Part shown: one piece after another, positions 3,134-46,971 of the stretch
Numbering within the stretch: position 1 is the first letter of the stretch
Layout of the letters: every line of letters begins with the position of its first letter
Virus record (IMG/VR): IMGVR_UViG_3300045996_001447
Coordinates: 1 to 58,770 of that record
Direction: 5' to 3' (one strand)
From: a virus
Lineage: Duplodnaviria > Caudoviricetes
DNA: 58,770 nt
Position numbers and translations under genes: made by a program
Notes under the pieces: model-generated
The model's input: the letters and a program-made list of their open reading frames with translations, nothing else
Told to the model about the DNA's origin: nothing
Databases searched by the model: none

Positions 3134-3997
3134 CTACGCAGCCCGCAGGACCGGGCCCAGTTCTCCGTGGTCGGTGACCCGCACCCGGACCTTGGCCAGG
3201 TCCGTGGCGCGGTTGGATCCGGCCACCTCGTAGATCCGGAACAGGTCGTCGGTGTTCAGCTCGCGGCCGGGATCGTGCTCGCGGGTCACCGGCATCACGT
3301 CGCACGCGCAGTGCGTGTGCAGCGGCATCAGTTCGGAGGTGCGGTAGAGCCGGTCCGCGGCCACCAGGCAGAGCCCGCACGGCCCGCCGGAGGTCATCTC
3401 GGGGCGGACCAGGCGCCGGTAGCCGATCGCCTCGTCGGTGCCGTCCAGCACCTCGTACGCGGCCGAGCGCATCGCCATGCCCAGGTCGTTGGACACCTGG
3501 CGCTCCAACCGGTCCAGCCCGGCGGCCTTGGCCTCGGGCTCCGGCGCGCCGATCGACCGGGCATAGCGCCACTGCTCGAACGCCCGGTAGTAGACGCTCT
3601 CCGGGTCGGTGACCTTGCGCAGCGTGGCGCCCAGCGCGATCGTGCCGGCCACCGCGGCGGTGACCGCGATGTGGCGCGAGGTGATCTGGGACAGCACCGC
3701 GCGCAGGTAGGCCGCGGTGGAGTTGGCCGTGGCCGACTGTCCACCCTGGATCAGCCGGAACGTGGCCCGGGCGGCCGCGGCGATGGCCTCGGGGTCACGC
3801 GGGTCGGCCACCGCGGCGTACTCACCGGTAACCAGGCGCAACGTGGTGGACGCGATCCGGAGCCGCGCCTGGGCCTGGCGCTCGGCCAGACTCAGCGCGG
3901 CCCCGGCCGCACCGCCGGGGAGCAGGGTCAGCGCGGGAGCGGCCTGGTAGGCCGCCTGGGCGGCCAGGGCCTCGGCCAGCGGGGCCGGGCTGGTCAC
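3134..3997 (-). CDS. MuF-like minor capsid / maturation protein
   Basis: GYRR...CGLC.VAADRLY...LMPLH.HCAC motif directly after portal. Confidence 0.75.
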   Translation of the reverse strand: MTSPAPLAEALAAQAAYQAAPALTLLPGGAAGAALSLAERQAQARLRIASTTLRLVTGEYAAVADPRDPEAIAAAARATFRLIQGGQSATANSTAAYLRAVLSQITSRHIAVTAAVAGTIALGATLRKVTDPESVYYRAFEQWRYARSIGAPEPEAKAAGLDRLERQVSNDLGMAMRSAAYEVLDGTDEAIGYRRLVRPEMTSGGPCGLCLVAADRLYRTSELMPLHTHCACDVMPVTREHDPGRELNTDDLFRIYEVAGSNRATDLAKVRVRVTDHGELGPVLRAA

Positions 3998-5637
3998 GAG
4001 CCCGACGAGCCCGACGAACTACCGGAACCGCCCGAACTGTCCGAGCCCCCGGACGAACCGGAGCCCGACGAGGTCGACGACCCGCCGGACGAGGTCCCCG
4101 GAGACCCCGCCGAGGCAGCGGAGCCCCCAGCGGCCCCCGTGCCGGTCGTGGCCGGGGTCTCCGGGGCGAATATCAGGTCGTCCGCGCGCTGCGCGCGCAG
4201 CCGCGGCAGGTCGTCCGGCTCGTACTGCAGCACGTCCACCATCCGGGACTCCCACGGCAGGCCCGCGGTGACCGCCTGGGCGGCCGCGGCGTAGCGCTCG
4301 GAGAGGCTGAACCGCTCGATGGGCGACCACAGGGTGGTGATCGTGAGCGGGTCGTCCCCCTCGGTGCCGGGTAGGTAGCCGAACGCCAGCGAGAACGCCT
4401 CGGCGAACCCGGACGAGCACCGGTTTCGCCGGTCCTTGGCCCGAAAGATCAGCCCTTCCTTGGCCGAGCTGGCGCCCTCGGCGGAGGCGTTGGCCGCGTC
4501 CGGCATGAAGTGCTGGACCGGCATCCGCAGCACCGCGGCCAGGTCCCGGACGTCGTCGCGCACGCTGGTGAGTAGCGGCCCGAGGTCCACCTGGCCGGAC
4601 TCCCACAGTTCCGCGGTAGCCGGCAGCAGCCACAGCGCCGAGGGGTCGTTGGTGAAGATGTCGGAGTAGTCGATCGGGTTGCCGTCCTTGTCCTTGGTCG
4701 GCACACCCTTGATCGCCCGCTGGCGGAACGCCTGCAGCGTGGCGATCACGATCCGCTGTAGCAGCATGTGGTTGACCCGGTCCAGGTGGTCGGTGTGGTT
4801 CTCGAACTCACCTTCCGAGTCGTGGTTGGCGAACCGGGCCACCGCGCAGCGGTCACCGATGGAGCCGGACAGGTCCCGGTCCACGGTGATCTCCCACTGG
4901 CGCGGGTCGAACCGGAACCGGCGCCGGGTCACGTCCAGGGACGAGGTTCCGCGCACGCTGTCCCCGGTGCGCTCGAACTTCACCGCGCGCCCGGGCGGGT
5001 AGAGCCACCCGACATCGCGCTGGGCAATCGGGTCGTAGTACAGCTTGAGCCCCATGATCACTCGCTGGGGCATCTCCGGGTCCTGCTCGGTGATCACCCA
5101 GCGCGGGTCCTCGGCGGTGATGATCGGCAGGGCGCCGCGGACCGGGACGCCGGCCGCGTCGGTGCGCGGCGGTCCGGTGATGGTGTAGCTCTCCCCCATC
5201 ACCAGCATTTTCTCGATCACCTCGGACGCCTGGACGTCCATGGAGTTGGCCGCCCAGATCCGGCGGGCCAGCGCGTTGGTGGTGTCGTTCGGGACCGGCG
5301 CCAGCGCCGAGCCGACCTGGCGCGCGGAGCCGGTGGCCACGGCCACCGAGTCGATCGTGGCCTGGTCGGTCTCCACCCGGCACCCGATCGGCTCCAGCCG
5401 CTCGGCCACGGTGCGGGTGACCAGCTCGGCCAGGTTCATCCGGGCCTTCTGCTGGAACGCTTTCCAGACCCGTTCCCGGTTGCGCGACGCGGCCGGCGAG
5501 CCCAGCTCGGGCAAAGGCGGGTTGCCCTTGTGCCGGTCCCAGAGCGGCTGGATGCGCTTGCGGCGCTCCATGAGCGCGTCGGCCAGGCGCTGGATCCACC
5601 AGCCGTCCGACTCGGGGACGTCCACGTCGTTGATCAC
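3994..5637 (-). CDS. portal protein
   Basis: 547 aa, SPP1 gp6-like actinophage portal motifs (QAFRQRAIKG, LWES, ANASAEG); G/S-rich tail. Confidence 0.9.
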   Translation of the reverse strand: MINDVDVPESDGWWIQRLADALMERRKRIQPLWDRHKGNPPLPELGSPAASRNRERVWKAFQQKARMNLAELVTRTVAERLEPIGCRVETDQATIDSVAVATGSARQVGSALAPVPNDTTNALARRIWAANSMDVQASEVIEKMLVMGESYTITGPPRTDAAGVPVRGALPIITAEDPRWVITEQDPEMPQRVIMGLKLYYDPIAQRDVGWLYPPGRAVKFERTGDSVRGTSSLDVTRRRFRFDPRQWEITVDRDLSGSIGDRCAVARFANHDSEGEFENHTDHLDRVNHMLLQRIVIATLQAFRQRAIKGVPTKDKDGNPIDYSDIFTNDPSALWLLPATAELWESGQVDLGPLLTSVRDDVRDLAAVLRMPVQHFMPDAANASAEGASSAKEGLIFRAKDRRNRCSSGFAEAFSLAFGYLPGTEGDDPLTITTLWSPIERFSLSERYAAAAQAVTAGLPWESRMVDVLQYEPDDLPRLRAQRADDLIFAPETPATTGTGAAGGSAASAGSPGTSSGGSSTSSGSGSSGGSDSSGGSGSSSGSSGS

Positions 5638-5976: not shown

Positions 5977-6588
5977 TCAGTAGACCCGGATCCGCCACTC
6001 CATGACCGTCAGCGCGCCCTTGCGGGTGTTGCACGTCGGGCAAGCGGGGGCCAGGTTTCCGATCGCGTGTCGTCCACCCCGAATGATCGGGATGATGTGG
6101 TCCCAGTGCAACGACGTGCCCGGGACGACCGGCACGGCGCAGTACGCGCACCGGCCGCGGTGACGATCTAGTAGCCGGGCCAGGTCCCGCGCGGTGACGC
6201 GTCGTCGCTCCGCACCACGCCGGACAGCTTTCTGGACGCGCAGCAACTCGGCCACGATGTCCCGGTTCGACCGGCGCCAGTCCGCCACGGCGCGACGGCG
6301 GCGCTCGGGGTCCTGGGCGTACCGGGCTCGTCGAAGCGCGTTCCGCCGGACCTTGTCCCGCTCGTGCCGAACGCGGTCGTAGGCGCGATGCCGCTCCGGG
6401 TCGGTCGCTCGGGCCGTCCGACGACGAGCGTTGACATCATCCCGACGACGGGCGTGCGACCGGCGATCCTGCTCCGGGTCCCGGCGTCGGTAGTTCTGGT
6501 TCCAGCACCGATGAGAGCAGAACCGAGCGTCCGACCGGCGGCCGGTAAACGAGGCATCGCACTCCGCACAGCGGAGATCGTGTTCCAC
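5977..6588 (-). CDS. HNH endonuclease (freestanding, homing-type)
   Basis: CAYC...HWDHIIP..RGG.H...NL.PAC..CN.RKG; N-terminal CxxC...FCS..C; GTG start just after terL stop. Confidence 0.85.
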   Translation of the reverse strand: MEHDLRCAECDASFTGRRSDARFCSHRCWNQNYRRRDPEQDRRSHARRRDDVNARRRTARATDPERHRAYDRVRHERDKVRRNALRRARYAQDPERRRRAVADWRRSNRDIVAELLRVQKAVRRGAERRRVTARDLARLLDRHRGRCAYCAVPVVPGTSLHWDHIIPIIRGGRHAIGNLAPACPTCNTRKGALTVMEWRIRVY

Positions 6589-6592
6589 CTCA

Positions 6593-8275
6593 TTAGTATA
6601 CCCGGATTGGTACGAAAACTTGATCCTCGGTGATCCCCGCGGCCACCGCGTCACAGCGGGCCTCGTAGGCCAGGACCGCGGCCATGCACGCGTCGATCTT
6701 GTCCGGGCTCTGCGGGAACGGCTTGCCGATCAGGTCCCCCGAGCGGGTGGGCCGGACTCGGGCGTTGCCGATGTGACGGGTGAGCGTCGGCTGGTCGGCG
6801 TGGCTCAGCGCAACGTCCTGGGCGGCCTCGTGGAACCGCTCCAGCGCGGTCACCATGCGCCGGGAGTGCCCACCACCGGTCCACCACTCCATCGGGCGTG
6901 AGCCGCTGGCCTTGAGCCGCATCGCGTCGCCCCACTCGGCCTGCCAGCGGTCAAGGTAGTCCTGCCAGTGGGCCGGGTCGGCGTAGACCGCGGCCACGTC
7001 GTAGGTCTCCATCGCGCGGGTGAACGCCGCGTCCACCGCGACCCGGTCCACCTGCCAGTCCTTGGCGTACGGCGGGCGCTCCCAGCAGCCGATCAGCTCC
7101 AGGTACCCGTCGGAGATGCGGGCGGCCACCAGGGCCGTGGCGTCGTCGCGGATCGACCCGTCGAACCCGAGGGTGACCAGGTCCCCGTCGGCCAGCGGCG
7201 CCGGCTCGTCCTCACCCCGGTCGCGGCGGGCCTTGCGTCCGCACGCGTGCCAGGTCTGCAGGTCCATCCAGGCGTCCTCGCCAGAGATGATGTGGTTCAG
7301 GTAGAACCGGGCGGCCATCTCCGGCGGGGTGCCGGGGTCCAGGTACTCGACGACGATCCGTTCGATGTCCACCCAGGGCGCGCCCGAGTAGGCCCGGCGC
7401 AAGCCACGACGCAGCGACTCGGGGTCCCGGGGATCGGTGTCGGCCGGGGCTTCCAGGGAGTCGTAGAGCAGGCTCCGGCGCACCGTGCGGCCCTCGGTCT
7501 GGGCGACGTAAGCGCCGTGCGTGGCCTCGGCGACCGAGTCCTGGCCGGGGACGAACGCGTTGCACGTCTCGATCGACCGGCCGCCGATCTTGCCGAGGTT
7601 ACGGCGGATGACCTTGGCAAGATCGTGGCCGCCGTTGGACGCCAGCCACCACTCGGTCTCGTCCAGCACACAGAACGTCGGCCGGGCGCCCTCCGCCGCG
7701 TGCGGGGACGCCGTGATGATCTCCAGGCGGCCCCCGCCGGGGGTGTAGACCCGCGTCTTGCCGGTGTCCAGGCCGTACCGCTCCCGCACCCGCGACCCGG
7801 GCGGCACGAGCGCGGTCACCATGGACATGGTGTTGGTGGTCTGGGCCTCGGCGGTGGCCGCGATCTGCACCCAGGGCATCGGCACCGACTTGCCCACCAG
7901 GAACTCGAACCCGGCGGAGTCGTCGGTGGAGTCGAATCCGGCGAACCGGACCGGCCCCACCAACTCGCACAGTGACAACGCGGCTACATAGGGTGACTTG
8001 CCAGTCCCTTTCGAGCGGCGGATCGCCGCGCGGTTGTGCAGGAACCGGCCGTCGTCGTCGATCGCGTAGTACCAGAGCAGGAAGTGGATCTGGGCGTCGG
8101 TGAACCGCCAGGGCTCCCCGGCGTGGTCCCCGTCGGGCTGGACCAGCCAGGTGTGTGCCCACAGGATCACGCCCCAGCCCAGCGTCCGCATCGGGTCGGG
8201 CTCGTGCTCGGGCAGCGTGTCCGAGAGCGGGAACACCTCGGCCGGCGCCTCGGGAGCGTCCGGGGTGAGCGTCAC
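6593..8275 (-). CDS. terL: terminase large subunit (packaging operon)
   Basis: Walker A RSKGTGKS, Walker B VLDETE, nuclease LGFDGS..DDATA and KIDA motifs; upstream of portal. Confidence 0.95.
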   Translation of the reverse strand: MTLTPDAPEAPAEVFPLSDTLPEHEPDPMRTLGWGVILWAHTWLVQPDGDHAGEPWRFTDAQIHFLLWYYAIDDDGRFLHNRAAIRRSKGTGKSPYVAALSLCELVGPVRFAGFDSTDDSAGFEFLVGKSVPMPWVQIAATAEAQTTNTMSMVTALVPPGSRVRERYGLDTGKTRVYTPGGGRLEIITASPHAAEGARPTFCVLDETEWWLASNGGHDLAKVIRRNLGKIGGRSIETCNAFVPGQDSVAEATHGAYVAQTEGRTVRRSLLYDSLEAPADTDPRDPESLRRGLRRAYSGAPWVDIERIVVEYLDPGTPPEMAARFYLNHIISGEDAWMDLQTWHACGRKARRDRGEDEPAPLADGDLVTLGFDGSIRDDATALVAARISDGYLELIGCWERPPYAKDWQVDRVAVDAAFTRAMETYDVAAVYADPAHWQDYLDRWQAEWGDAMRLKASGSRPMEWWTGGGHSRRMVTALERFHEAAQDVALSHADQPTLTRHIGNARVRPTRSGDLIGKPFPQSPDKIDACMAAVLAYEARCDAVAAGITEDQVFVPIRVY

Positions 8276-8675: not shown

Positions 8676-8896
8676 GTGACGCCCTCCGGCAGGGCGATCC
8701 AGGCCACCTGGTGGGCGTTGATCACGTCACGGCGGGAGCCGAACAACTGGACCGCCGGGTCCCCGCCGTGGCCACGCCAGGCGCTGCGGATGGCGTCCAC
8801 GATGGCCTGGGCATTGGAGACTAGACAGGCCTGGAGCCGGTGCTGGTGTCCGCCGGCCATGTGGATCACTAGGGTGACCCGGCGCTCGTCGGTCAT
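8672..8896 (-). CDS. hypothetical protein
   Basis: ATG overlaps TerS stop (TGATG). Confidence 0.55.
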   Translation of the reverse strand: MTDERRVTLVIHMAGGHQHRLQACLVSNAQAIVDAIRSAWRGHGGDPAVQLFGSRRDVINAHQVAWIALPEGVT

Positions 8897-9324
8897 CAGG
8901 CACCCCGCGACTTGCGTCGTTGCGCGGACAGGCTGGCCACCGCGCCGTCCCGGGCGCTGTCGCCCGCGGCGTCCGGGCGGGCCAGCTCCATCTTGGCCCG
9001 GCGCCGATCCCCGGCCGTGGCCAGCAGGGACGAGCATCCGGACAGGAACGCCGACAGGGCGTTACCGCCCATCGGGCCCTTCCACGCCAGGTGGCGGGAC
9101 AGGTCCTCGGCCAGAACCCAGGCCGTCTCGGCGTCGCTCTGCTGGTAGTCGATCGCCTGGGCGCTCTGCTGGAGGCTCAGGTACCACGCCTCGGCGGCCT
9201 CGTGCCAGTCCCCGGGCTCACGCCAGGTGACCGCCATCGGGGTCACCTCGTCGAACGGGTCGTTCTGGGCGCCGTGCCCGTGTCGCATGTCCGGCCGCTT
9301 GCCGACCGGCCCGCGTTCTCCCAT
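8896..9324 (-). CDS. terS: terminase small subunit
   Basis: GGAGG RBS; MG.RGP.GKR, WH..A..WY.SL..S.Q, LL.T.GDRRR motifs of actinophage TerS. Confidence 0.85.
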   Translation of the reverse strand: MGERGPVGKRPDMRHGHGAQNDPFDEVTPMAVTWREPGDWHEAAEAWYLSLQQSAQAIDYQQSDAETAWVLAEDLSRHLAWKGPMGGNALSAFLSGCSSLLATAGDRRRAKMELARPDAAGDSARDGAVASLSAQRRKSRGA

Positions 9325-9399
9325 GATCGCCTCCTGGGTGACCAACTAGCCCGTAACGCCTGGTCACGGGGTGAAACTGTCGCCTGGACCCGCCAGGGA

Positions 9400-9475
9400 A
9401 ACCCCGGCGCACTGTCAGCGCGTGAACCCGCCGGGAGGCGTGCGTACCGGGGGAGGGGGTCCCCCGTCCCCCGTC
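9400..9475. other. candidate cos / packaging site region
   Basis: non-coding gap between HNH and TerS with G/C runs, the usual cos position in HNH-TerS-TerL phages; exact site not determinable. Confidence 0.35.
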
Positions 9476-9800
9476 ACGGGTCGATCAGCCCTGGGTGCTC
9501 GCGCACGTGACGCGGTCGGCGACGGTAGCGCTCAGCATTGGCTCGGCCACCCTCGGATGCTGTCTTGGCCGTGTGGTGCGAGGTGCACAGCGCCCATAGC
9601 TCGTCGTCCGGCACGGATCCTGTTGTGCCGCAGCGCTTGTGGTCGACATGTGTCGCATGTGCAGCACATATGCGATTCGCATATGGCCATTGGCACGTAT
9701 GCCCATCACGCTCAAGGATCCGATTGCGTGTTCCATCTTTCAGATACCAATCGTTTGGCAATCGAGCCTTACGATCAGATACTGAATCATATGACCACAC
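9474..9800 (-). CDS. HNH endonuclease (terminase-associated, HK97 gp74-like position)
   Basis: RLP.DW...R..IL.RD...CQ...C...AT.VDH...LC..HH..KT..E; ends EHPGL. Confidence 0.85.
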   Translation of the reverse strand: MWSYDSVSDRKARLPNDWYLKDGTRNRILERDGHTCQWPYANRICAAHATHVDHKRCGTTGSVPDDELWALCTSHHTAKTASEGGRANAERYRRRPRHVREHPGLIDP

Positions 9801-36398: not shown

Positions 36399-36496
36399 TT
36401 GTCGGGGCGTGGACAGCCACGTAAGAACGCCGGTTAGCGCAGCGGGCTGGTTGGCTGCGCATGGAGGCCAATGACCGACGTCGCCCCGACCCCTCG

Positions 36497-36550
36497 GTCG
36501 GACTGTCCACCCCCTGGTGTCGGACTGAAAGTGTGGTTTACACTGCACCC
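36497..36550 (+). promoter_or_regulatory. leaderless promoter with tandem GTCGGACTG sites
   Basis: GTCGGACTG at 36497 and 36519; TACACT 36539-44, ATG 6 nt later. Confidence 0.6.
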
Positions 36551-36904: not shown

Positions 36905-36941
36905 ACCCGCACCACCGACACCGAGCACCCAGGAGGACACC

Positions 36942-37223
36942 ATGCCCCGACCCACCCAGGACCGGATCGACCGGTCCGAGCTGCCCGAGTTCCTGCGTAG
37001 CAAGGCGATCGGCGCCGTGGTCGCCGAGGCGCTGCTGTCGCCGAGCAACGGTGACGACTGGCCGGACGCCTACCGGACGATGGTCCAGGAGGCCGCGGCC
37101 GAGATCCGCACGTTCCACGGGTTGCCGGAGCCGGCACCGGAGATCGTTCGCAACGGTCACCTGACCGACTACCAGGTGGAGCGCGAGCTGGGCGTGGACA
37201 CGCAGGTGGAGGTCACGGACTGA
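36942..37223 (+). CDS. hypothetical protein
   Basis: AGGAGG RBS. Confidence 0.7.
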   Translation: MPRPTQDRIDRSELPEFLRSKAIGAVVAEALLSPSNGDDWPDAYRTMVQEAAAEIRTFHGLPEPAPEIVRNGHLTDYQVERELGVDTQVEVTD

Positions 37224-37558
37224 TGGCACCGGTCGATCTGCACGCGCTCCCGTTCGGGTCGGTAATCGCGGCGGGACAGACAGTGGCGATCCGGACTGCC
37301 CGGGGCTCGGTCGGCGGAGGTCTGCCGCGGCCCTGGTACCTGACTGACCCGCCTCACGGCCCGTACACCGTCGGGGACCTGCTGGCCATGTCCCAGGACT
37401 GGGTGGTGCTACGGCACGGGCCGTCCACGGTGGTCGGAGACCAGGCCGAGGTGGCCGACGAGTACGACCGGGACCCGGACGACGAGCCGGGCGGGGACGA
37501 CCCCGAGGCGCCCGGTGTCCAGGACCTGGGCCAAGCCTGGACGGAGCGGCACCGGTGA
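37223..37558 (+). CDS. hypothetical protein
   Basis: TGATG coupling; L.ALP.GSV...W.VLR.G. Confidence 0.65.
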   Translation: MAPVDLHALPFGSVIAAGQTVAIRTARGSVGGGLPRPWYLTDPPHGPYTVGDLLAMSQDWVVLRHGPSTVVGDQAEVADEYDRDPDDEPGGDDPEAPGVQDLGQAWTERHR

Positions 37559-37677
37559 CTGAGTGCGGCGGGTCCCTGGCGTGCGAGTTGACCGGCCTCC
37601 CGCCGGGGATCCTCACCGTCGGGGTGGCGGTGCTCGTGCTGCTGGGCCTGGTGTCCCAGGCGGGGAGGCGGAAATGA
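37555..37677 (+). CDS. 40-aa membrane peptide
   Basis: coupled at both ends; TM helix. Confidence 0.45.
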   Translation: MTECGGSLACELTGLPPGILTVGVAVLVLLGLVSQAGRRK

Positions 37678-37859
37678 TCACGACGCCGGAGCCGGGCCGC
37701 TGCGACGCCCCGACCGGCCCCGCCGGCTCGTGGCTCTGCGGGCGCCTGCTGCTGGGGACCGGGCGAGCGCGGCTGTGCACCGAGCACCCGGACCACCCCC
37801 AGGGTGCACCCGAACTGCCCGAGGTACCGCTGGAGCGACGCCGGCACCGGCGCCGCTGA
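37674..37859 (+). CDS. small Cys-containing protein
   Basis: GGAGG RBS, ATGA coupling. Confidence 0.5.
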   Translation: MITTPEPGRCDAPTGPAGSWLCGRLLLGTGRARLCTEHPDHPQGAPELPEVPLERRRHRRR

Positions 37860-37878
37860 GTACGAGACGAGGGTGACC

Positions 37879-38295
37879 ATGTCCGACACCGAGCACCGAT
37901 TCCCGTCGATCTCCGCCGAGCCCGAGCCGCGCCCGGGTACCGACGTGGAGCGTCCGAGCGGCCCCGTGCCGCCGTGGTTCCGGCCGGAGACCTACGTCCG
38001 GTGGGCGCTGACCGCGGGCTACGTGATCGCGCTGGCCGGACTGGTGTCCACGCTCGGTGGCGGAGTGGCCCCCTGGCTGGGCTGGATTGTGCTGCTGCTC
38101 GGTACCGGCGCGCCGGCCCTGGTGTTCTGGATCAAGCACAACGACCACCAGAACGCGATCGACCGGGGCGTGCGCGGGATCGGCACCGGTCCCGGGGCGT
38201 CCCGGTTCCAGGGCGGGACGTCGCTCTCGGCGGGCCCGGGACGCGACGACGACCACCGGGCCGACGATTCCGAGTCGGACGTCAGATACCCCTAA
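37879..38295 (+). CDS. two-TM membrane protein
   Basis: GAGGG RBS; two hydrophobic helices. Confidence 0.7.
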   Translation: MSDTEHRFPSISAEPEPRPGTDVERPSGPVPPWFRPETYVRWALTAGYVIALAGLVSTLGGGVAPWLGWIVLLLGTGAPALVFWIKHNDHQNAIDRGVRGIGTGPGASRFQGGTSLSAGPGRDDDHRADDSESDVRYP

Positions 38296-38317
38296 TGATC
38301 TTCATTAATGCAGATCA
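38296..38317. promoter_or_regulatory. 22-bp AT-rich near-palindrome (operator-like)
   Basis: TGATCTTCATTAATGCAGATCA, one mismatched pair. Confidence 0.5.
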
Positions 38318-38347
38318 GGGGCACGTGCGGGAAGTGTGTGGATCATC

Positions 38348-38893
38348 ATGGACACGGAGGGTGAACAGCCGTCACGCGCTGATCTGATCGCCCGTGCCTG
38401 GGAACTGTCCACCGGCAACGCTCCCGAGTGCCACGACCGGCCGATGAGCACTCGCCGCGTGGCCCGAGAGATGGACATCCCGCACTCCACGGCGCGGGAC
38501 TACATCAAGGAAGCGCACGAGGTCCAGGGATGGATCGACCTGCTGGACCGGGCCGAGGGGCGACAGGCGCTCGCGTTGCGGACCATGCGGGTGCTCGATC
38601 GGCTGGACAAGGTGATGGAGGACGACGAGCGGCTGGTGGAGGTGGCTCCGGTGTGGTTCAAGGGAGCCGGCCAGCTCGCCCAGTTGCTCGGGCTCAACGC
38701 CCCGGTGCGGGTGCAGAACGAGACGGTACGGCCGAACGTGGAGCCGAGCCCCGACGTGGCCGAGGCGGTCCGCGCGGCCCAGCGACGAGCGGCCCGGGAA
38801 CGCGCCGAGATCCGCGGGGAGTCCCCGCTGGTGATCGCGCCGGGGCAGGACGGTACCGAGAACGACGACGACGACGGAGACGGAGAGACGTGA
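38348..38893 (+). CDS. terminase small subunit-like HTH protein (second set)
   Basis: HTH S.R.VA.EM.I..STA..YI; helical RLD; C-terminal LLGLNAP.R motif seen in TerS-like proteins. Confidence 0.55.
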   Translation: MDTEGEQPSRADLIARAWELSTGNAPECHDRPMSTRRVAREMDIPHSTARDYIKEAHEVQGWIDLLDRAEGRQALALRTMRVLDRLDKVMEDDERLVEVAPVWFKGAGQLAQLLGLNAPVRVQNETVRPNVEPSPDVAEAVRAAQRRAARERAEIRGESPLVIAPGQDGTENDDDDGDGET

Positions 38894-39384
38894 TGCCGCA
38901 CTGGAACTACCGAGTTCTGCGCCGGGAGGTGAATGGGGAAACGGAACTGGCCGTGCACGAGGTCTATTGGGACGGAGACCGGATCACCGGGTGGACCGAG
39001 ACCCCGGCAACGGCCACGGCGGAGACCCTTCCGGAGCTACGCGACGTCCTGGCCAAGATGGCGACCGCCCCGGAGTTCGACGTGATCGAGATCAGCACCG
39101 ACGACGAGGAGTGGAACATGAGCTGGGGACACTGGAGCGGAGACTACGACCCGCCGGCCGCGAACCGGCCGCCGAGCGGGCTGCGCCACGCGCTGGCGAT
39201 GGCCTGGCGCGACGCCCGGCCCGAGCTGGCCCAGGCCCTGCAGCGTCTCGCGCTGCGCCTGGACCCGGGGATGCCCTACGTCCGGGACACCGGGTACGGG
39301 ATGGAGGTCTGGGCGAACGGGGTCAAGCTGCTGCGCCTCGGGCGCGGCTCGGTAGCGGGGCGCCAGTACGGGGGCGAGGCATGA
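38893..39384 (+). CDS. hypothetical protein (WNYRV...HEVY motif)
   Basis: TGATG coupling. Confidence 0.7.
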   Translation: MPHWNYRVLRREVNGETELAVHEVYWDGDRITGWTETPATATAETLPELRDVLAKMATAPEFDVIEISTDDEEWNMSWGHWSGDYDPPAANRPPSGLRHALAMAWRDARPELAQALQRLALRLDPGMPYVRDTGYGMEVWANGVKLLRLGRGSVAGRQYGGEA

Positions 39385-39476
39385 ACTGCCCAGGGTGCGG
39401 CCGGACGCTGTCGAATCCGAGGCGCTGCATCGCGTGCGGCTGGGGATTCTTCCGTCGGCTGGTGATGACGCGATGA
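39381..39476 (+). CDS. 31-aa Zn-ribbon peptide
   Basis: CPGCG...CIACG; coupled. Confidence 0.5.
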   Translation: MNCPGCGRTLSNPRRCIACGWGFFRRLVMTR

Positions 39477-39958
39477 CCGGCCCGCGCGCCCGGGACCCGC
39501 AGCCCGGGGACCCGGACTACGGCGAGCACCTCGCCCGGCGGATCGCGGGGGCGATCGCCTGGCAGGGGCGGGTTCCCGCGAACCAGGCCCTGGGCGGGAT
39601 CGACTTGGCCCGCGCGATCGTCGCGTTACCCGAGGTGCAGGCGTTGCTCGCCAGTGAGCTGGATCGGTCCTCCACGGGGCTGCTGTCGTCGGTGGACGAT
39701 GTCGCCCGCGTCTGCCAGGCCGCCGGGCTGCGAGAGGGCGGCGATCAGGAGTGGGGCGCTGGTCCGGTCGCGGTGTATACCGGGCTGCGGCGCGGGCGGA
39801 CGCTCCGCTCGGTCGTTGTCGAGCGACTCGAACACGTCGACACGCATCAGAGCGGCGTCCGGGCCGTGTGGTCGGCACGGTTCTACCCCGGCAGCCCCGC
39901 TCACCTGTTGTGGGCGGCGATCCAGGCCGCGCACGTCGGGCAGCGGGACGGCGCATGA
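39473..39958 (+). CDS. hypothetical protein
   Basis: ATGA coupling. Confidence 0.6.
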   Translation: MTGPRARDPQPGDPDYGEHLARRIAGAIAWQGRVPANQALGGIDLARAIVALPEVQALLASELDRSSTGLLSSVDDVARVCQAAGLREGGDQEWGAGPVAVYTGLRRGRTLRSVVVERLEHVDTHQSGVRAVWSARFYPGSPAHLLWAAIQAAHVGQRDGA

Positions 39959-40110
39959 TCCGCGGGCTGTTCGGCCGGCTCGTGCCGCCTCGGGACCCGG
40001 ACGAGGCGCCGGTCCCGGTGCGGGAGGTGCAGCGGCTGGAGGACGAGGTCCGGGCGCTGCGTGAGCGGGTGCGGGTGCTGGAGGAACGAGTGGACGAGGT
40101 GGGCTGGTGA
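39955..40110 (+). CDS. small coiled-coil protein
   Basis: coupled; heptad pattern. Confidence 0.55.
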   Translation: MIRGLFGRLVPPRDPDEAPVPVREVQRLEDEVRALRERVRVLEERVDEVGW

Positions 40111-40304
40111 TTGACGTGACGATGACGTTCCGGGTGTCGCGCCCGGACGGGACCGCGGACACCGTGACCGTCCAGCGCCGGATCGACCGGCCGGGGGACC
40201 CGGCGGGAACGGTGGTCCCGGGGCGACTCCACGCCGACATCGCGGCCATGGGTGTGCGCCTGGCCCACGACGTGAACCGGATCTACGCCCCGAGGGAGAC
40301 CTGA
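40107..40304 (+). CDS. hypothetical protein
   Basis: coupled. Confidence 0.55.
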   Translation: MIDVTMTFRVSRPDGTADTVTVQRRIDRPGDPAGTVVPGRLHADIAAMGVRLAHDVNRIYAPRET

Positions 40305-40552
40305 TGACCGAGTACGAGCGCGAGGACGGGCCGCGGGCCACCAAGTCGATCGATCTCACCGCACTGCCCCCGCCGGTGGAGTTCATCGTGCGCGCTCGGG
40401 TGCCGGCGTGGCAGGTCACCGGCGGCACGATGTACGCCGACGAGATCCCGCTGTTCGAGTGCTCGCGGTGCCCGGGCGTGGTGATCTGGGGTGACCGGCT
40501 CTACCCGCACCGGGAGTGGCACCTGGTCCAGGATCGGAGGCCGCCGACGTGA
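40304..40552 (+). CDS. hypothetical protein (CxxC...H..WH)
   Basis: GGGAG RBS; coupled. Confidence 0.6.
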   Translation: MTEYEREDGPRATKSIDLTALPPPVEFIVRARVPAWQVTGGTMYADEIPLFECSRCPGVVIWGDRLYPHREWHLVQDRRPPT

Positions 40553-40656
40553 TCGGGTTCATGGAGTACATGACTGTTGCTTTGTCGAGCGGTGGACTCG
40601 CCTACGTCGTGGGGTATCGCTCCGGTCGGCAGGATCGGAGGCCGCCGACGTGATCG
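40529..40656 (+). repeat. 27-bp perfect direct repeats flanking a minigene
   Basis: CAGGATCGGAGGCCGCCGACGTGATCG at 40529 and 40630. Confidence 0.9.
40549..40653 (+). CDS. 34-aa hydrophobic minigene
   Basis: MIGFMEYMTVALSSGGLAYVVGYRSGRQDRRPPT; RBS supplied by the repeat. Confidence 0.5.
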   Translation: MIGFMEYMTVALSSGGLAYVVGYRSGRQDRRPPT

Positions 40657-40985
40657 AGATGGGCCTGTTCGTCCTGCTGAACGCCGGGCTCTCGATGTTC
40701 GCCGGAGGGATCGGGGCCTTGGTGGCGTTCGCGATCGACCGGAGGATGGACGACCGACCGACACAGCCTCCCGCCGAGCCCCAGCCGCTGGAGGCGGTGT
40801 GCTCGTGCGGGCACGGGTACGGCAAGCACCGTCACGACGGGTGCGGCGGGGTCACCGTGGTGCGCCGGGAGTGGACCCAGGACAGTTCGCTGAACACGTG
40901 GTTCGAGGAACAGATCCTGGAGTGCGGGTGCATCACCTACGACGGTCCGGACCTGGAGACGGTCCGGATGCTGCGGGGAGGCTGA
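40650..40985 (+). CDS. membrane-anchored protein with C.CGH....H / CGC..Y.GP domain
   Basis: GGAGG RBS; TM helix. Confidence 0.7.
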   Translation: MIEMGLFVLLNAGLSMFAGGIGALVAFAIDRRMDDRPTQPPAEPQPLEAVCSCGHGYGKHRHDGCGGVTVVRREWTQDSSLNTWFEEQILECGCITYDGPDLETVRMLRGG

Positions 40986-40986
40986 C

Positions 40987-41238
40987 GTGACCGAGCGACT
41001 GCACAACAAGGACTACACGGTGGCCGAGGCGGTCCAGGTGGTTCACACGGTGCGCGACCATCCGGCGCTCTCCGGGTTCCTCACGCGGCGAGACCTGTTG
41101 CGCGCGGCCGGCGTGCTGGCCGACTACGCGGCCGCCACCGGAAACGGGCCGATCAACGTGGCGCCCGGCCGCGCGGTGATCACGATGCCAGACGGCACCT
41201 CGTACGAGATCCCGCTGGTGGGCCGGGTGGCCCGATGA
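40987..41238 (+). CDS. hypothetical protein
   Basis: GGAGG RBS; coupled to next gene. Confidence 0.65.
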   Translation: MTERLHNKDYTVAEAVQVVHTVRDHPALSGFLTRRDLLRAAGVLADYAAATGNGPINVAPGRAVITMPDGTSYEIPLVGRVAR

Positions 41239-42713
41239 CCACGATCGAGTTCCCGCCGGGCGTGGACGCGGCGCGGGTGCTGACGCCGCTCAACTCGGCG
41301 GCCTGGGAGCACTCTCCGGCCTACCGGCGCGCGGTCACGGTGAACGACCCGGTGGCGTTTGCGATCACCTACCTCCCCCACCACCTGGCCAGCACGCTGA
41401 CGGGTGGGGTGATGTCGTTCGCGCCGATGCACATCGCGATGGCCAAGCTGGGCCGGTCGTGGCTGGATGACCGGCCGCACCGGGACGCGGTGATCGCGCC
41501 GCGCTCGATCGGGAAATCCACCTGGGCGTTCCTGGTGCTCCCGCTCTGGGCGATGGCGCACGGGCACCGGTCCTACGTGGTGGCGTTCGCCGACGCCTCG
41601 GGGCAGGCCGAGGGGCACCTGGCGAACTTGCGGAACGAGATCGCACGCAACGAGCTGCTGGCCCAGGACTTCCCCGAGCTGACGCCGGCCGGGCGCAACA
41701 ACGCCAAGGACCTGGTGACCGAGGGCGGGGCCGCGTTCTCGGCGCGCGGGATGGACTCGCGCACGCTGGGGGCCAAGTCCGGGGCCGACCGCCCGGACCT
41801 GCTGATCGGGGACGACCTGGAGCCGATGAGCCGCTACAGCGCCCAGGTGCGTGACGAGCGCCTCCACGTCCTGCTGGACGGGGTGTTGCCGATGGGCGAC
41901 CGGGCCAACGTGCTGCTGGTCGGCACCGTGGTGCGCTACGGGTCGATCATGCACACGCTGGCCCAGTACGCACGCGGCCGGGAGACCGGGGAGGCGTGGC
42001 CGGTGTCCGAGGGGATCGCGGCGCACTACTTCCCGCCGATCCTGGGCACCGGGGCCCGGGAGCGCTCGTGCTGGCCGGCGCGCTGGCCGCTGTCCGAGCT
42101 GCGTGCGCTGCGTGATGCGGGCGGGTCCAAGTGGTGGCTGAACTTCCTCAACGACCCGCCGCGCCCGGGCGAGTCCGGCGCCGGCTGGACGCCGGAGATG
42201 TTCACCTACGGCGGGGCCGACGTGGACCAGTGGGTCGTGGTGGTGGACCTGGCGCCGACGTCCAAGGCCACGAGCGACCAGACCGCGGTGGCGGTGCTCG
42301 GGGTGGACGTGTCGGGCCGGCACCTGGTGGTGGCCGAGTGCCGCGGGGTGCGCGCCCAGCCCGGGGAGATCCGGGACCTGGTGCACCGGCTGGCCAAGCG
42401 CTACCACGCGCGGGAGGTGCACGCCGAGGTGAACCAGGGCCACGACACCTGGCGCCGGGTGTTCCAGCCGATGCCTCAGCTCCCCGGCTCCGGAAAGCCG
42501 GTCCGGCTGGTCCCGTTCCACACCTCGTCCAACAAGCGGGAGCGGATCCTGGACCTGGTGGACCTCTACGGCCGCGGCGGGGTGATCCACCTGGATCGGC
42601 TCGGGGAGCTGGAGCGCCAGGCCCTGGCGTGGCCGGATGTGCGCCACGACGACCTGGTGGACGTGATCGCGCTCGGCGCCGAGCGCCTGGCCGGTCAGCT
42701 CGTGCGGCTGTAA
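41235..42713 (+). CDS. second terminase large subunit-like ATPase/nuclease
   Basis: Walker A IAPRSIGKST, RPDLLIGDDLE Walker B, VGT motif, nuclease VVVDLA...SD.TA, E.NQG, and HDDLVD. Confidence 0.88.
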   Translation: MTTIEFPPGVDAARVLTPLNSAAWEHSPAYRRAVTVNDPVAFAITYLPHHLASTLTGGVMSFAPMHIAMAKLGRSWLDDRPHRDAVIAPRSIGKSTWAFLVLPLWAMAHGHRSYVVAFADASGQAEGHLANLRNEIARNELLAQDFPELTPAGRNNAKDLVTEGGAAFSARGMDSRTLGAKSGADRPDLLIGDDLEPMSRYSAQVRDERLHVLLDGVLPMGDRANVLLVGTVVRYGSIMHTLAQYARGRETGEAWPVSEGIAAHYFPPILGTGARERSCWPARWPLSELRALRDAGGSKWWLNFLNDPPRPGESGAGWTPEMFTYGGADVDQWVVVVDLAPTSKATSDQTAVAVLGVDVSGRHLVVAECRGVRAQPGEIRDLVHRLAKRYHAREVHAEVNQGHDTWRRVFQPMPQLPGSGKPVRLVPFHTSSNKRERILDLVDLYGRGGVIHLDRLGELERQALAWPDVRHDDLVDVIALGAERLAGQLVRL

Positions 42714-42733
42714 CGGGCTAATTCGAGGCAACC

Positions 42734-42874
42734 GTGTTTCGACTGCTGAGTGTGGGGGTTCTCGACCGAGTTATGAGACAGATGCCGGACGGCCTACGGT
42801 CGCGGTGGTTCCGGTGGCGTGCGAAACGGATTATCCGCCAGGTGGACCGACGTCACGGCCCGTTGGGCTACTAG
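42734..42874 (+). CDS. possible 46-aa peptide
   Basis: GAGG RBS + GTG; atypical codon usage. Confidence 0.3.
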   Translation: MFRLLSVGVLDRVMRQMPDGLRSRWFRWRAKRIIRQVDRRHGPLGY

Positions 42875-42968
42875 CCCGGACACGACGAAACGCCCCGGTC
42901 GCCGACCCGCTGTAGCGGTGCCGACGCCGGGGCGTCATCAGTTCTAGGTACGGCCTTGCATTCGTCGG

Positions 42969-42998
42969 TTGCACGTAGTGTCGGGCGTGGTTTACAGT
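42969..42998 (+). promoter_or_regulatory. SigA-like leaderless promoter with TGTCGGG box
   Basis: TTGCAC-18-TACAGT-6 nt-ATG(43005); hairpin at about 42890-42936 upstream. Confidence 0.8.
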
Positions 42999-43004
42999 GG
43001 TCGC

Positions 43005-43385
43005 ATGACGCACACCGAGACCGCCACCCCCACCAGCATCGCGCACCTGATCGTGGATGACCTGGACTACATCAGCAGCAAGCCCGTTCGGGTCCCGCAC
43101 GTCGGCCGGGTCGGCGTTGTCCAGTCCGCCTACCGGATCTCCGGTCAGATCACCGTGGACGTCCGGTTCCCGGATGGCTCGGTCATCGGGGACCTGGGCG
43201 CGTTCGGCGAGTACGCCGATGTAAAGCAGGTGGACGACACCACGGCTTACGAGGCGTACCGCCGCGACATCGCGCTGGACGCGCGCTGGATGGTGTGGCC
43301 CTCGTGCGACGAGTGCGACAACGGGCCGTCCAAGCCGTGCCGCCGGACCTGCTCGTACATCGCCCGGATCTACCACACCCGCTGA
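43005..43385 (+). CDS. hypothetical protein
   Basis: leaderless start MTHTETAT; C-terminal CxxC...C...C. Confidence 0.75.
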   Translation: MTHTETATPTSIAHLIVDDLDYISSKPVRVPHVGRVGVVQSAYRISGQITVDVRFPDGSVIGDLGAFGEYADVKQVDDTTAYEAYRRDIALDARWMVWPSCDECDNGPSKPCRRTCSYIARIYHTR

Positions 43386-43393
43386 CCGCTGGT

Positions 43394-43423
43394 CCCCCGA
43401 GCCCCCAGGGAAGGGCTCGGGGG
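43394..43423 (+). terminator. hairpin
   Basis: CCCCCGAGCCC / GGGCTCGGGGG. Confidence 0.6.
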
Positions 43424-43461
43424 CCTGTCATCTCATCACACCGAGCACGAGAGTAGGAACC

Positions 43462-43845
43462 ATGACACGCCAACCCGGGATCCCCGTCGGTGACGGCGCC
43501 GCGCGCCTGTCCGGCCGCCAGCGCCGCGCCGTGGACGCCCGTATGTCCGAGGTCCTGGGCAACGACGACCGGCCGCCGGCCGTGTCCGGCTGGACCCGGT
43601 TCTCCCACCAGATGAGCGTCCAGGCCCAGGTGATCCACGGCCAGCCGCGGTTCGGCCACCTGCTCCACGCCTGCCTCACGATCCTGACCGGCGGGGCCTG
43701 GGGCCTCGTGTGGTGGGCGTGCTGGATGGGCTCGGCCCGGCGCCGCTACCAGCGCACGCGCCTGCGCCAACTCGACGCGGCCGGCCTGCTGCACCCGGGG
43801 GACCTGTTCCTCCCCGGCGGCTCCGGGCCGCGGCGGGCGCCCTAG
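43462..43845 (+). CDS. membrane protein (H.LH..LT.LT.G.W..VW motif)
   Basis: AGGA RBS; last plus-strand gene. Confidence 0.7.
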   Translation: MTRQPGIPVGDGAARLSGRQRRAVDARMSEVLGNDDRPPAVSGWTRFSHQMSVQAQVIHGQPRFGHLLHACLTILTGGAWGLVWWACWMGSARRRYQRTRLRQLDAAGLLHPGDLFLPGGSGPRRAP

Positions 43846-44528: not shown

Positions 44529-44531
44529 CGG

Positions 44532-46968: not shown

Positions 46969-46971
46969 GGC

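What the first reader, a model, noticed from the sequence alone, without database searches (positions are those of the whole stretch)
38348..42713. A second, unrelated terminase system (TerS-like + TerL-like) in the early arm, with no portal or capsid of its own
Seen: a canonical TerS/TerL sits next to the portal (6593-9324). The opposite strand also encodes a 492-aa ORF with a full ATPase set (APRSIGKST, LLIGDDLE, VGT) and nuclease acidic motifs (VVVDLA, SD.TA, HDDLVD), preceded about 2.3 kb upstream by an HTH protein ending LLGLNAP. Codon usage matches the genome and the genes are translationally coupled, so it does not look like decay. Knowledge: its motif style differs from the first TerL, and tailed phages normally carry one terminase. 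Inference: an alternative packaging motor (host DNA or headful packaging, i.e. built-in transduction/GTA-like activity), interference with co-infecting phages, or a decoy for terminase-sensing defences such as Avs.
Basis: partly seen in the sequence, partly recalled or inferred. Interest (0 to 1): 0.88.

Follow-up and report, generated by a model that had tools for sequence, protein, structure and literature searches.

The report
Phage with two complete terminases
A soil phage that already has a normal DNA-packaging enzyme beside its head genes also keeps a second, intact and unrelated packaging enzyme (small and large subunit) with no head genes of its own, which is unusual and so far unexplained.

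Summary
The window is one viral contig (58,770 bp, 71% GC). A cos-type set (HNH, TerS1, TerL1, HNH) sits beside the only portal. A second large terminase, TerL2 (41235-42713), ends the opposite-strand arm. TerL2 matches phrog_38 (E 1.9e-63) and folds like solved terminases (pLDDT 92). It keeps all 31 invariant residues of its family and is 33-36% identical to the working terminases of cultured Streptomyces and Microbacterium phages and satellites. The 181-aa HTH protein (38348-38893) is a true small-terminase homologue of the kind found directly upstream of TerL2-type genes (hhalign 98%, E 2e-13). In the wider TerL2 family a portal follows the gene in 46 of 51 loci with enough flank; here none does. 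An assembly chimera is unlikely: composition is even, and Logan contigs from four studies tile 30-50 kb and bridge the junctions. In one relative, the TerS2-like, TerL2-like and endolysin-like proteins all report an 18,332-bp contig. Three relatives (73-79% identical) are full length, with both domains equally conserved, so decay is unlikely. The function is open. My best guess is an active second terminase that cuts or packages DNA from its own site. This is a new variant of a known kind, of moderately high interest.

The parts
38348..38893 (+). TerS2: 181-aa small-terminase homologue with an N-terminal HTH, long helices and a conserved LLGLNAPVRV segment
   Evidence: Family of 9 proteins. 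hhalign against 12 TerS genes that lie upstream of TerL2-type TerLs: 98.0%, E 2.2e-13, 142 columns. AF2 model: HTH plus long helices, pLDDT 73. No Pfam or PHROG TerS hit.
38893..41238 (+). About seven small coupled ORFs of unknown function between TerS2 and TerL2 (38893-39384, 39473-39958, 39955-40110, 40107-40304, 40304-40552, 40659-40985, 40987-41238)
   Evidence: ORF map and start-codon overlaps. No PHROG, Pfam or PADLOC function. The Atlas gave nothing usable.
41235..42713 (+). TerL2: intact large terminase (ATPase plus RNase H-like nuclease) of the T7/Mu/Zukovirus-like lineage
   Evidence: phrog_38 at 1.9e-63. 33-36% identical to annotated terminases of cultured phages. All 31 invariant columns of a 36-sequence family kept. 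AF2 pLDDT 92.1. Foldseek best match 8dgc_E, the PhiV-1 terminase, at 1.3e-22.
42714..42968 (.). 255-bp non-coding gap after TerL2 with a GC-rich inverted repeat (about 42888-42940) that may act as a terminator
   Evidence: Read directly from the sequence. Not called by the T-tract terminator scan. No tRNA or Rfam hit.
42960..43025 (+). Fifth, diverged copy (61%) of a 66-nt promoter-like, leaderless-start repeat that opens a separate small transcription unit
   Evidence: Repeat family D2, copies at 27250, 27594, 28280, 30633 and 42960. Sequence read.
43005..43845 (+). Two small ORFs (43005-43385 and 43462-43845) that close the plus arm; the last overlaps the end of the convergent tail-fibre gene by 4 nt
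   Evidence: No function found. Contigs from two runs of two studies bridge this junction.
8896..9345 (-). TerS1: the canonical small terminase
   Evidence: PF25673 Terminase_7 at 7.5e-28.
6593..8275 (-). TerL1: canonical large terminase, HK97/Terminase_1-like, intact
   Evidence: phrog_9 at 4e-73. 43-44% identical to Arthrobacter and Curtobacterium phage terminases. Walker A K89/G90/K93/S94, D205-E206, D372, D433 and D528 all fall on columns at least 90% conserved in 43 distinct sequences.
5977..6654 (-). HNH endonuclease between TerL1 and the portal
   Evidence: PF01844 at 2.1e-13. Absent from relative L073, where the TerL abuts the portal.
9474..9800 (-). Second small HNH endonuclease just upstream of TerS1, with foreign codon usage
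   Evidence: ORF. Weak HNH-type hit (IscB model, E 6.6e-4). Codon r = 0.35.
3994..5637 (-). The only portal gene, SPP1 gp6-like
   Evidence: PF05133 at 8.6e-10 and phrog_104 at 1.5e-81. Portals cognate to TerL2-type terminases (Dryad, KimJongPhill) hit it weakly at E 3e-6 and 3e-5.

Best explanation
Shown: the phage carries two complete terminases of different lineages. One is a cos-type HNH/TerS1/TerL1 set beside the portal. The other is the TerS2...TerL2 pair at the end of the opposite-strand gene array. TerS2 and TerL2 belong to families that normally sit together directly upstream of a portal, so the pair was captured as a unit from a Zukovirus/Dryad/Wyvern-like actinophage lineage, without that lineage's head genes. 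It has since been kept intact.

Inferred: the pair is an active enzyme. TerS2 binds a recognition site of its own, different from the TerS1 site. TerL2 cuts there and translocates DNA using ATP.

Most likely role (a guess): TerL2 docks on the phage's single SPP1-type portal, the portal class that TerL2-type terminases normally use. That would give a second route of packaging initiation, of the terminal-repeat or headful kind, alongside cos packaging.
For: Identity: TerL2 matches phrog_38 at 1.9e-63 and is 33-36% identical over 91-97% of its length to annotated terminases of cultured phages. Its fold matches solved TerLs. TerS2 is homologous to the TerS family upstream of TerL2-type genes.

Integrity: all 31 invariant family columns are kept, including K94, D193, D194, G230, T231, D338, E398, N400, D473 and D476, plus the near-invariant E196 and D348.

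Selection: three relatives at 73-79% identity are full length (490-491 aa). The ATPase core (76-82%) and the nuclease domain (76-78%) are equally conserved. Root-to-tip length in the tree is 1.6, against a family mean of 1.64 +/- 0.25. In the relative on the 18,332-bp contig, TerL2 (79%) is more conserved than the endolysin (74%) or TerS2 (71%).

Expression context: a tightly coupled gene chain runs from TerS2 to TerL2, and codon usage is native.

Portal class: in 46 of 51 family loci with at least 2 kb downstream, a portal follows the TerL. Those portals are weakly homologous to the window's portal.
Against: No activity, DNA end or recognition site was observed; only assembled contigs were available, so no read termini. 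TerL1, TerS1 and the HNH genes are also intact and sit in the canonical place, so a second packaging route is not needed on present knowledge. TerS2 is separated from TerL2 by 2.3 kb, unlike canonical pairs: a known-type TerS lay within 1.5 kb upstream in 32 of 54 family loci. Whether relatives also carry a TerL1-type gene is unknown. For the 73% relative, on a 33,615-bp contig, neither a TerS2-like nor an endolysin-like hit reports that contig length, so its context may differ. TerS2 has no hit in curated TerS models, and fold searches with its model were inconclusive.
Confidence: 0.38

Rival explanations
1. Conflict weapon or piracy tool. TerS2/TerL2 act not on the phage's own packaging but on other mobile elements in the same host. 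They could cut the packaging site of satellites or competing phages that use this terminase type. Alternatively they could load the phage's own DNA into procapsids made by such elements.
For: The nearest cultured homologues include two Streptomyces satellites, MiniFlayer and Mulchroom, which carry the same TerS/TerL type. The pair arrived without head genes, which fits a tool aimed at someone else's packaging site or capsids. The terminase module next to the portal has also been exchanged in this lineage: L073 has a portal 82% identical but a TerL only 40% identical, which suggests packaging specificity is under pressure.
Against: TerL2 is no closer to the satellites (33.5-33.8%) than to ordinary phages (34-36%). 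Nothing else is shared with the satellites. There was no hit to defence-system models. No target element is known.
Confidence: 0.22
2. Non-packaging DNA processing. The ATPase-nuclease has been recruited for concatemer or branch processing, recombination, or host DNA breakdown, with TerS2 acting as its DNA-binding specificity factor.
For: The pair lies in the arm that holds the helicase, methyltransferase, Cas4-like exonuclease and RusA-like resolvase, not in the virion module. The TerL nuclease has an RNase H/RuvC-like fold.
Against: The ATPase core and the N-terminal region are as conserved as the nuclease, and every motor motif is kept. That is what a translocating terminase needs, and more than a nuclease needs. 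The phage already has a resolvase and an exonuclease.
Confidence: 0.17
3. Functionless relic of a module exchange. A recombination replaced the portal-to-lysis block of a TerL2-type phage with an inverted block that brought its own terminase, and the old terminase has simply not decayed yet.
For: Mosaic exchange of terminase modules is seen in this lineage. The position, at the junction of two convergent arms, is where such a join would lie.
Against: Four lineages that differ by 21-27% in protein sequence all keep a full-length ORF with every invariant residue. Conservation exceeds that of the endolysin in the same relative. Codon usage is native, with GC3 0.97. One relative appears to share the same local arrangement.
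Confidence: 0.08
4. Assembly chimera of two phages, each with one terminase.
For: The record is a metagenome-derived contig without end repeats, and both of its ends cut genes. No single independent contig spans from TerL1 to TerL2.
Against: Tetranucleotide correlation is 0.97-0.99 in every 5-kb window, and 0.98 at 37.5-45 kb. Every other essential module is present only once. Logan contigs of four runs from four studies cover all 30 bins of 30000-49999. Zero-mismatch pieces bridge into TerL2 (40369-41403), and two pieces bridge the convergent junction at 43842 (42760-44035 with no mismatch, 43055-45735 with 6 other letters). All listed joints have sides under 30 nt, which the tool flags as noise. 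TerS2-like, TerL2-like and endolysin-like proteins of a relative all report an 18,332-bp contig.
Confidence: 0.03

Closest known systems
Large terminases of Streptomyces phages Dryad, Gibson, KimJongPhill and Zuko, and Microbacterium phages Wyvern, Isperia and OscarSo (phrog_38, T7/Mu-like TerL lineage)
   Same: 33-36% identity over 91-97% of TerL2, the same motifs and the same two-domain fold. TerS2 is homologous to the TerS type of KimJongPhill.
   Different: In those phages the TerL is the only terminase: 0 of the 4 records checked have a TerL1-type gene. It also sits beside the portal. Here it is a second terminase with no portal beside it, and TerS is 2.3 kb away.
Streptomyces satellites MiniFlayer and Mulchroom
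   Same: They carry TerS and TerL of the same broad family (33.5-33.8% identity). Their records note identical terminal repeats that include terS.
   Different: The satellites also encode a portal, scaffold and capsid, and lack tails and replication genes. The window is the reverse: a full phage that holds only the terminase pair. Nothing but TerL is shared.
HK97-type cos packaging with an HNH accessory nuclease (recalled from the literature, not read here)
   Same: The window's first system fits it: HNH, TerS1, TerL1 (phrog_9, weak sequence hit to HK97 TerL 6z6d) and HNH beside the portal.
   Different: This describes TerL1, not the finding. It matters because it shows the phage already has a complete packaging system.
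SaPI/PICI packaging redirection and capsid-forming PICIs (recalled)
   Same: These are mobile elements that carry their own TerS, or TerS plus TerL, to divert packaging. They are a precedent for terminase genes serving in conflicts between elements.
   Different: Those are chromosomal islands that parasitise a helper. Here the extra terminase is inside a complete phage genome. No island features (integrase, attachment sites) were seen in the ORFs scanned.
Split or duplicated 'two large terminase genes' reported in genome notes
   Same: They are superficially similar: two TerL annotations in one genome.
   Different: The one case read (phage phiPDS1, passage of PMC10773633) is a single terminase split into two CDS. 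Here both genes are full length and belong to different families.

Membership tests
Large terminase subunit (TerL) | Walker A P-loop | tested here: met
   APRSIGKST; K94 is invariant in 36 sequences.
Large terminase subunit (TerL) | Walker B aspartates with the catalytic glutamate | tested here: met
   LLIGDDLE; D193 and D194 invariant, E196 at least 90% conserved.
Large terminase subunit (TerL) | Coupling (C) motif after the Walker B strand | tested here: met
   G230 and T231 invariant. Naming this as the C motif is from recall.
Large terminase subunit (TerL) | C-terminal RNase H-like nuclease with conserved acidic residues | tested here: met
   D338, E398, D473 and D476 invariant; D348 at least 90% conserved. 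PF22530 at E 1.7e-5, but 25.4 bits is under the 27-bit cut-off. Nuclease-domain structures matched (5m1f, 4iox, 3n4p).
Large terminase subunit (TerL) | Two-domain fold like solved terminases | tested here: met
   pLDDT 92.1. Foldseek: 8dgc_E 1.3e-22, T4 gp17 8e-13, HK97 6e-12, D6E, Sf6. Whole-chain TM is only 0.3-0.4, as expected when two domains differ in relative pose.
Large terminase subunit (TerL) | Curated family model above threshold | tested here: inconclusive
   phrog_38 at 1.9e-63 (PHROGs has no curated cut-off). NCBIfam termin_lrg_T7 at 54.9 bits, under its 150-bit cut-off. Pfam hit just under its cut-off.
Large terminase subunit (TerL) | Gene beside the portal gene (the usual context, not a strict definition) | tested here: not met
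   Two small ORFs follow, then convergent tail-fibre genes. In the family, 46 of 51 loci have a portal downstream.
Large terminase subunit (TerL) | ATP-driven DNA packaging and cutting activity | not testable with these tools
   Needs biochemistry or genetics.
Small terminase subunit (TerS), KimJongPhill/Zukovirus type | Sequence homology to TerS genes that sit directly upstream of the cognate TerL | tested here: met
   hhalign A2 against A3: 98.0%, E 2.2e-13, 142 columns. Single-sequence comparisons were weaker: E 7e-5 and 78%.
Small terminase subunit (TerS), KimJongPhill/Zukovirus type | N-terminal HTH followed by long helices (oligomerisation core) | tested here: inconclusive
   The AF2 model shows this layout at pLDDT 73. 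Pfam HTH hits are only E about 0.07. Foldseek against the PDB: best E 0.14, TetR-like. Against BFVD: the KimJongPhill TerS ranks 4th at E 0.025, and nothing reaches 0.001.
Small terminase subunit (TerS), KimJongPhill/Zukovirus type | Immediately upstream of TerL | tested here: not met
   2.3 kb and about seven ORFs lie between them, though all are in one coupled chain.
Small terminase subunit (TerS), KimJongPhill/Zukovirus type | Hit to a curated TerS model | tested here: not met
   No Pfam or NCBIfam TerS family. The only PHROG hit is phrog_645, annotated 'Rnase E', at E 1e-4.
Phage satellite (MiniFlayer type or capsid-forming island) | Own capsid and portal genes but missing tail or replication functions | tested here: not met
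   No second portal, scaffold or capsid. The contig has its own polymerase-primase, helicase, tail and lysis genes.
Gene transfer agent | Chromosomal, non-replicating particle genes that package host DNA at random | tested here: not met
   The record is a virus genome with replication genes. Packaging content is not testable here.
Known anti-phage defence or decoy proteins | Match to a defence-system model | tested here: not met
   0 of 10 proteins of the region hit PADLOC at E <= 0.01.

The most novel reading that the evidence does not exclude
The extra terminase is a weapon or piracy tool in conflicts between mobile elements. A complete phage keeps a foreign TerS/TerL pair for one of two purposes. 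It may cut or mis-package satellites and rival phages that use that packaging signal. Or it may load its own genome into their procapsids, which would be the mirror image of satellite piracy. A related bold reading is a built-in second packaging route that makes transducing particles.
Probability: 0.22. Interest if true: 0.85.

Novelty: new variant of a known kind. Interest (0 to 1): 0.62.

Why it matters
Tailed phages are taken to have one terminase, matched to one portal and one packaging signal. TerL is widely used as the single-copy marker for phage phylogeny, for predicting packaging mode, and for counting viral populations. A lineage that stably keeps two intact terminases of different types breaks that assumption. 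It would mislead TerL-based classification and packaging prediction. It also poses a clean question: what selects for a second motor without a capsid? The phage is found in soil metagenomes from several studies, so material for a test should exist. If the second enzyme packages DNA, it is a new source of transduction. If it acts on other elements, it is a new type of phage-phage or phage-satellite weapon.

Tried and rejected
Complex prediction on TerL2 plus TerS2: no verdict, so it counts neither for nor against binding.

Foldseek with the TerS2 model against the PDB and BFVD: nothing at E <= 0.001.

Single-sequence and profile searches of PDB sequences: no useful hit for TerL2 or TerS2.

Close relatives with DNA context were sought but not found. 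IMG/VR gave 31-40% identity at best. The JGI metagenome loci reached only about 45% on partial matches. GTDB genomes gave one 2.5-kb contig at 40%. The phages collection gave no DNA match.

Pairwise comparisons of TerS2 with the Wyvern and MiniFlayer TerS, and of the 83-aa ORF with Wyvern gp7, were not significant.

The promoter/terminator scan of 35-45 kb found nothing above shuffles. tRNA and Rfam scans found nothing in the TerL2 region. No direct or inverted repeats suggesting attachment sites or a packaging-site array were seen around 38-43.9 kb. The protein Atlas gave nothing usable for two intervening ORFs.

Integrated satellite: rejected. Defence system: no support.

The joints listed by read laying all have a shorter side under 30 nt, so I treated them as noise.

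Three literature searches and the passages read turned up no paper describing one phage with two complete, different terminases. The library lacks most subscription journals, and supplements were closed, so this does not prove absence.

Full report
WHAT THE WINDOW IS

The window is a whole IMG/VR virus record of 58,770 bp. It is classed 'linear', and CheckV estimates it 100% complete. GC content is 71.3%.

Genes picked by third-position GC, with PHROG and Pfam scans, give a siphovirus map.
- Minus strand, 16173 down to 1: a fused primase-polymerase (11740-16173), a small HNH (9474-9800), TerS1 (8896-9345), TerL1 (6593-8275), an HNH (5977-6654), the portal (3994-5637), protease (3134-3997) and major capsid protein (769-1830).
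- Plus strand, 16659-43845: helicase, methyltransferase, HNH, Cas4-like exonuclease, tRNA-Val, RusA-like resolvase and many small ORFs. TerS2...TerL2 come at the far end.
- Minus strand, 58752 down to 43842: tape measure, minor tail proteins, endolysin (47489-48601) and tail-fibre-like genes.

Both contig ends cut open frames. A head-tail-adaptor-like ORF runs off base 1, and the tape-measure frame is open at base 58770. So the two ends belong to one late operon, and a piece is missing. I estimate 3-4 kb, because the adaptor-to-tape-measure interval is 3.7 kb in Gordonia phage Marietta. The record is therefore not quite complete. The missing part should hold connector, major tail and chaperone genes.

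No cultured phage is close: portal identity is at most 34% and polymerase at most 32%.

THE OBSERVATION

The evidence that it is a large terminase:
- phrog_38 at E 1.9e-63;
- PF22530 at E 1.7e-5, just below Pfam's cut-off;
- NCBIfam termin_lrg_T7 at E 6.4e-15, below its cut-off;
- matches in 245 of 50,697 phage records by tblastn.

The best of those matches are 33-36% identical over 91-97% of the protein. They are the annotated terminases of Microbacterium phages Wyvern, Isperia and OscarSo, of Streptomyces phages Dryad, Gibson, Zuko and KimJongPhill, and of the satellites MiniFlayer and Mulchroom. Mu-like phages follow at about 25%.

An AF2 model built from a 36-sequence alignment has pLDDT 92.1. 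Its best Foldseek matches in the PDB are all large terminases: PhiV-1 (8dgc_E, 1.3e-22), T4 gp17, HK97, D6E and Sf6.

All 31 invariant columns of the family are kept. They include K94, D193, D194, G230, T231, D338, E398, N400, D473 and D476.

TerL1 is equally intact and belongs to a different family (phrog_9, 4e-73). Neither TerL detects the other in the record at E <= 0.001.

THE SMALL SUBUNIT

The 181-aa protein at 38348-38893 has no curated TerS hit. It has eight relatives at 52-73% identity, plus an identical copy.

To test it, I collected 12 TerS genes that lie directly upstream of TerL2-type terminases in IMG/VR and metagenome loci. A profile-profile comparison with the TerS2 family gave 98.0% probability and E 2.2e-13 over 142 columns, nearly the whole protein.

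The AF2 model (pLDDT 73) shows an N-terminal HTH and long helices. Fold searches were inconclusive.

So the pair is cognate by family. It differs from canonical pairs in that about seven small ORFs (2.3 kb) lie between the two genes. All are linked by 1- or 4-nt overlaps or very short gaps.

CONTEXT IN THE FAMILY

I examined 88 loci holding TerL2 relatives: 8 from IMG/VR and 80 from metagenomes. A few are duplicates of one contig (for example L005/L082 and L097/L128).
- 51 have at least 2 kb downstream. Of these, 46 have a portal downstream on the same strand, 43 of them within 1.5 kb. Four of the five exceptions are the most distant members (25-30% identity); the fifth, L081, is 37% identical.
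- 32 of 54 with at least 1 kb upstream have a known-type TerS within 1.5 kb.
- 0 of 88 have a TerL1-type gene in the fetched flanks.

The four cultured relatives inspected have the TerL beside the portal, and 0 of 4 have a TerL1-type gene.

In the window, TerL2 is followed by:
- a 255-bp gap with a GC-rich hairpin;
- a diverged copy of a promoter-like repeat;
- two small ORFs;
- the ends of the convergent tail-fibre genes.

No second portal, scaffold or capsid was found. The portals that go with TerL2-type terminases are weakly homologous to the window's single SPP1-like portal (E 3e-6 and 3e-5; reciprocal hits).

IS IT AN ARTEFACT OR A RELIC?

Composition is even. Tetranucleotide correlation is 0.965-0.988 in every 5-kb window and 0.98 across 37.5-45 kb. 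TerL2's codon counts correlate at 0.93 with other genes.

Ten soil-metagenome runs from seven studies hold part of 37000-46000; five of them hold at least half of the sampled words. I laid Logan contigs of four runs from four studies on 30000-49999.
- They cover all 30 bins in each run.
- The listed pieces are short (up to 2.7 kb), and most have no mismatch.
- Zero-mismatch pieces run from the upstream ORFs into TerL2 (40369-41403) and cover TerS2 with its neighbour (38264-39503).
- Two pieces cross from the TerL2 side over the convergent junction at 43842 into the tail-fibre genes: 42760-44035 with no mismatch, and 43055-45735 with 6 other letters.
- All listed joints have a shorter side under 30 nt, which the tool flags as typical noise.

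One of these runs may be the window's own source. No piece spans from TerL1 to TerL2.

Protein searches found TerL2 relatives at 79, 77 and 73% identity, all full length, then a step down to 47%.
- The 79% relative, a 71% TerS2 relative and a 74% endolysin relative each occur on a single contig, and all three report a length of 18,332 bp. In the window these three genes span 10.3 kb. In a canonical layout a terminase and the lysin would be about 20 kb apart. This relative therefore very probably has the window's arrangement. That is an inference from equal contig lengths, not a reading of the DNA.
- The 77% TerL2 relative and a 60% TerS2 relative both report 11,671 bp.
- For the 73% relative (33,615 bp), no TerS2-like or endolysin-like hit reports that length, so its context may differ.

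Within the close clade the ATPase core (76-82%) and the nuclease domain (76-78%) are equally conserved. The clade's root-to-tip length is average for the family. A neutral relic would not stay open and motif-perfect across 21-27% protein divergence.

WHAT IT MOST LIKELY DOES

Shown: there is a second, intact, conserved TerS/TerL pair of a lineage different from the phage's cos-type system, and it was acquired without head genes.

Inferred: it is an active, TerS2-guided, ATP-dependent nuclease-translocase.

Guessed: its role. I rank the possibilities as follows.
- A second packaging route on the phage's own portal: 0.38.
- A role in conflict with satellites or rival phages that use this terminase type, including use of foreign procapsids: 0.22.
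- Non-packaging DNA processing: 0.17.
- A relic: 0.08.
- A chimera: 0.03.

The remainder is for roles not thought of.

The closest members with recorded ends, the two satellites, carry identical terminal repeats that include terS. The best structural match is a T7-like terminase. TerL2 therefore probably belongs to a terminal-repeat or headful type rather than a cos type. This was not tested for the window.

A hint that packaging specificity is labile in this lineage comes from L073, an 8.7-kb IMG/VR fragment. Its portal is 82% identical to the window's, but its adjacent TerL is only 40% identical to TerL1, and it has no HNH gene in between.

COMPARISON WITH WHAT IS KNOWN

Each part is a member of a known kind. 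The combination is what is unusual. Three full-text searches and the passages read found no description of one phage with two complete, different terminases. The one 'two large terminase genes' case read is a single split gene (PMC10773633).

The following points are recalled, not read here:
- HNH-assisted cos cleavage in HK97-like phages;
- the MiniFlayer satellite paper;
- TerS-based redirection by SaPIs and PICIs;
- sensing of terminases by Avs.

For the last, only the title of PDB entry 8dgc was seen. Supplements were closed and the library is incomplete, so prior description elsewhere cannot be excluded.

VERDICT

This is a new variant of a known kind. Interest is 0.62: a specialist would be surprised by a conserved capsid-less second terminase, and the question is directly testable, but no mechanism is yet shown.

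Noticed in passing
window 9816-9969 (wider AT-rich stretch about 9700-10100): About nine tandem copies of a 17/18-nt AT-rich unit (ACACTAATTAGTATCAGC / ACAGTAATTAGTATCA) in a 71% GC genome, just upstream of the small HNH gene and TerS1 on the minus strand. Possibly TerS1 binding sites or part of the cos region, or replication iterons.
   Followed up: partly
window 9474-9800 (-): A 108-aa HNH endonuclease directly upstream of TerS1. Its codon usage is foreign (r = 0.35 against 0.8-0.96 for most other genes) and its GC is lower, so it looks recently acquired.
   Followed up: partly
L073 (IMG/VR fragment) versus window 3994-9345: L073's portal is 82% identical to the window's, but the adjacent TerL is only 40% identical and TerS about 29%, and there is no HNH between TerL and portal. 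The terminase module next to the portal has been swapped within this lineage.
   Followed up: partly
window 27250, 27594, 28280, 30633, 42960: Five copies of a 66-nt element that reads like a promoter (TTGCAx, 17 nt, TACACT) followed a few bases later by an ATG and a shared MTTQTAT-like N-terminus. That suggests leaderless small paralogous genes. The fifth, most diverged copy starts the unit just after TerL2.
   Followed up: no
window 1-392 and 58752-58770: Both contig ends cut open reading frames: a head-tail-adaptor-like ORF at the start and the tape measure at the end. The record therefore lacks roughly 3-4 kb of the late operon, despite the CheckV estimate of 100%.
   Followed up: yes
window 11740-16173 (-): A single 1477-aa ORF fuses a primase/helicase-like region (phrog_1156, phrog_2478) with a family A DNA polymerase (phrog_17). 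In the nearest cultured Streptomyces phages these are two adjacent genes.
   Followed up: no
window 56701-57105 and 54931-58752 (-): The tape measure gene holds three tandem 135-nt repeats and a C-terminal transglycosylase/lysin-like region (phrog_971, phrog_12661).
   Followed up: no
window 50370-50562 (-): Short 9-nt-periodic GC-rich repeats (…GCCGTTGGTGCC…), consistent with a collagen-like Gly-X-Y stretch in a tail-fibre or minor tail gene.
   Followed up: no
window 37000-46000 in public runs: Near-identical sequence occurs in soil metagenome runs from several studies (10 runs from 7 studies listed; 5 runs hold at least half of the sampled words). The phage appears widespread in soils.
   Followed up: partly
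window 8896-9345 (-): TerS1 matches Pfam Terminase_7 strongly (7.5e-28). Its best PHROG family (phrog_226) is annotated 'minor tail protein', which is probably a mislabel in that library.
   Followed up: no
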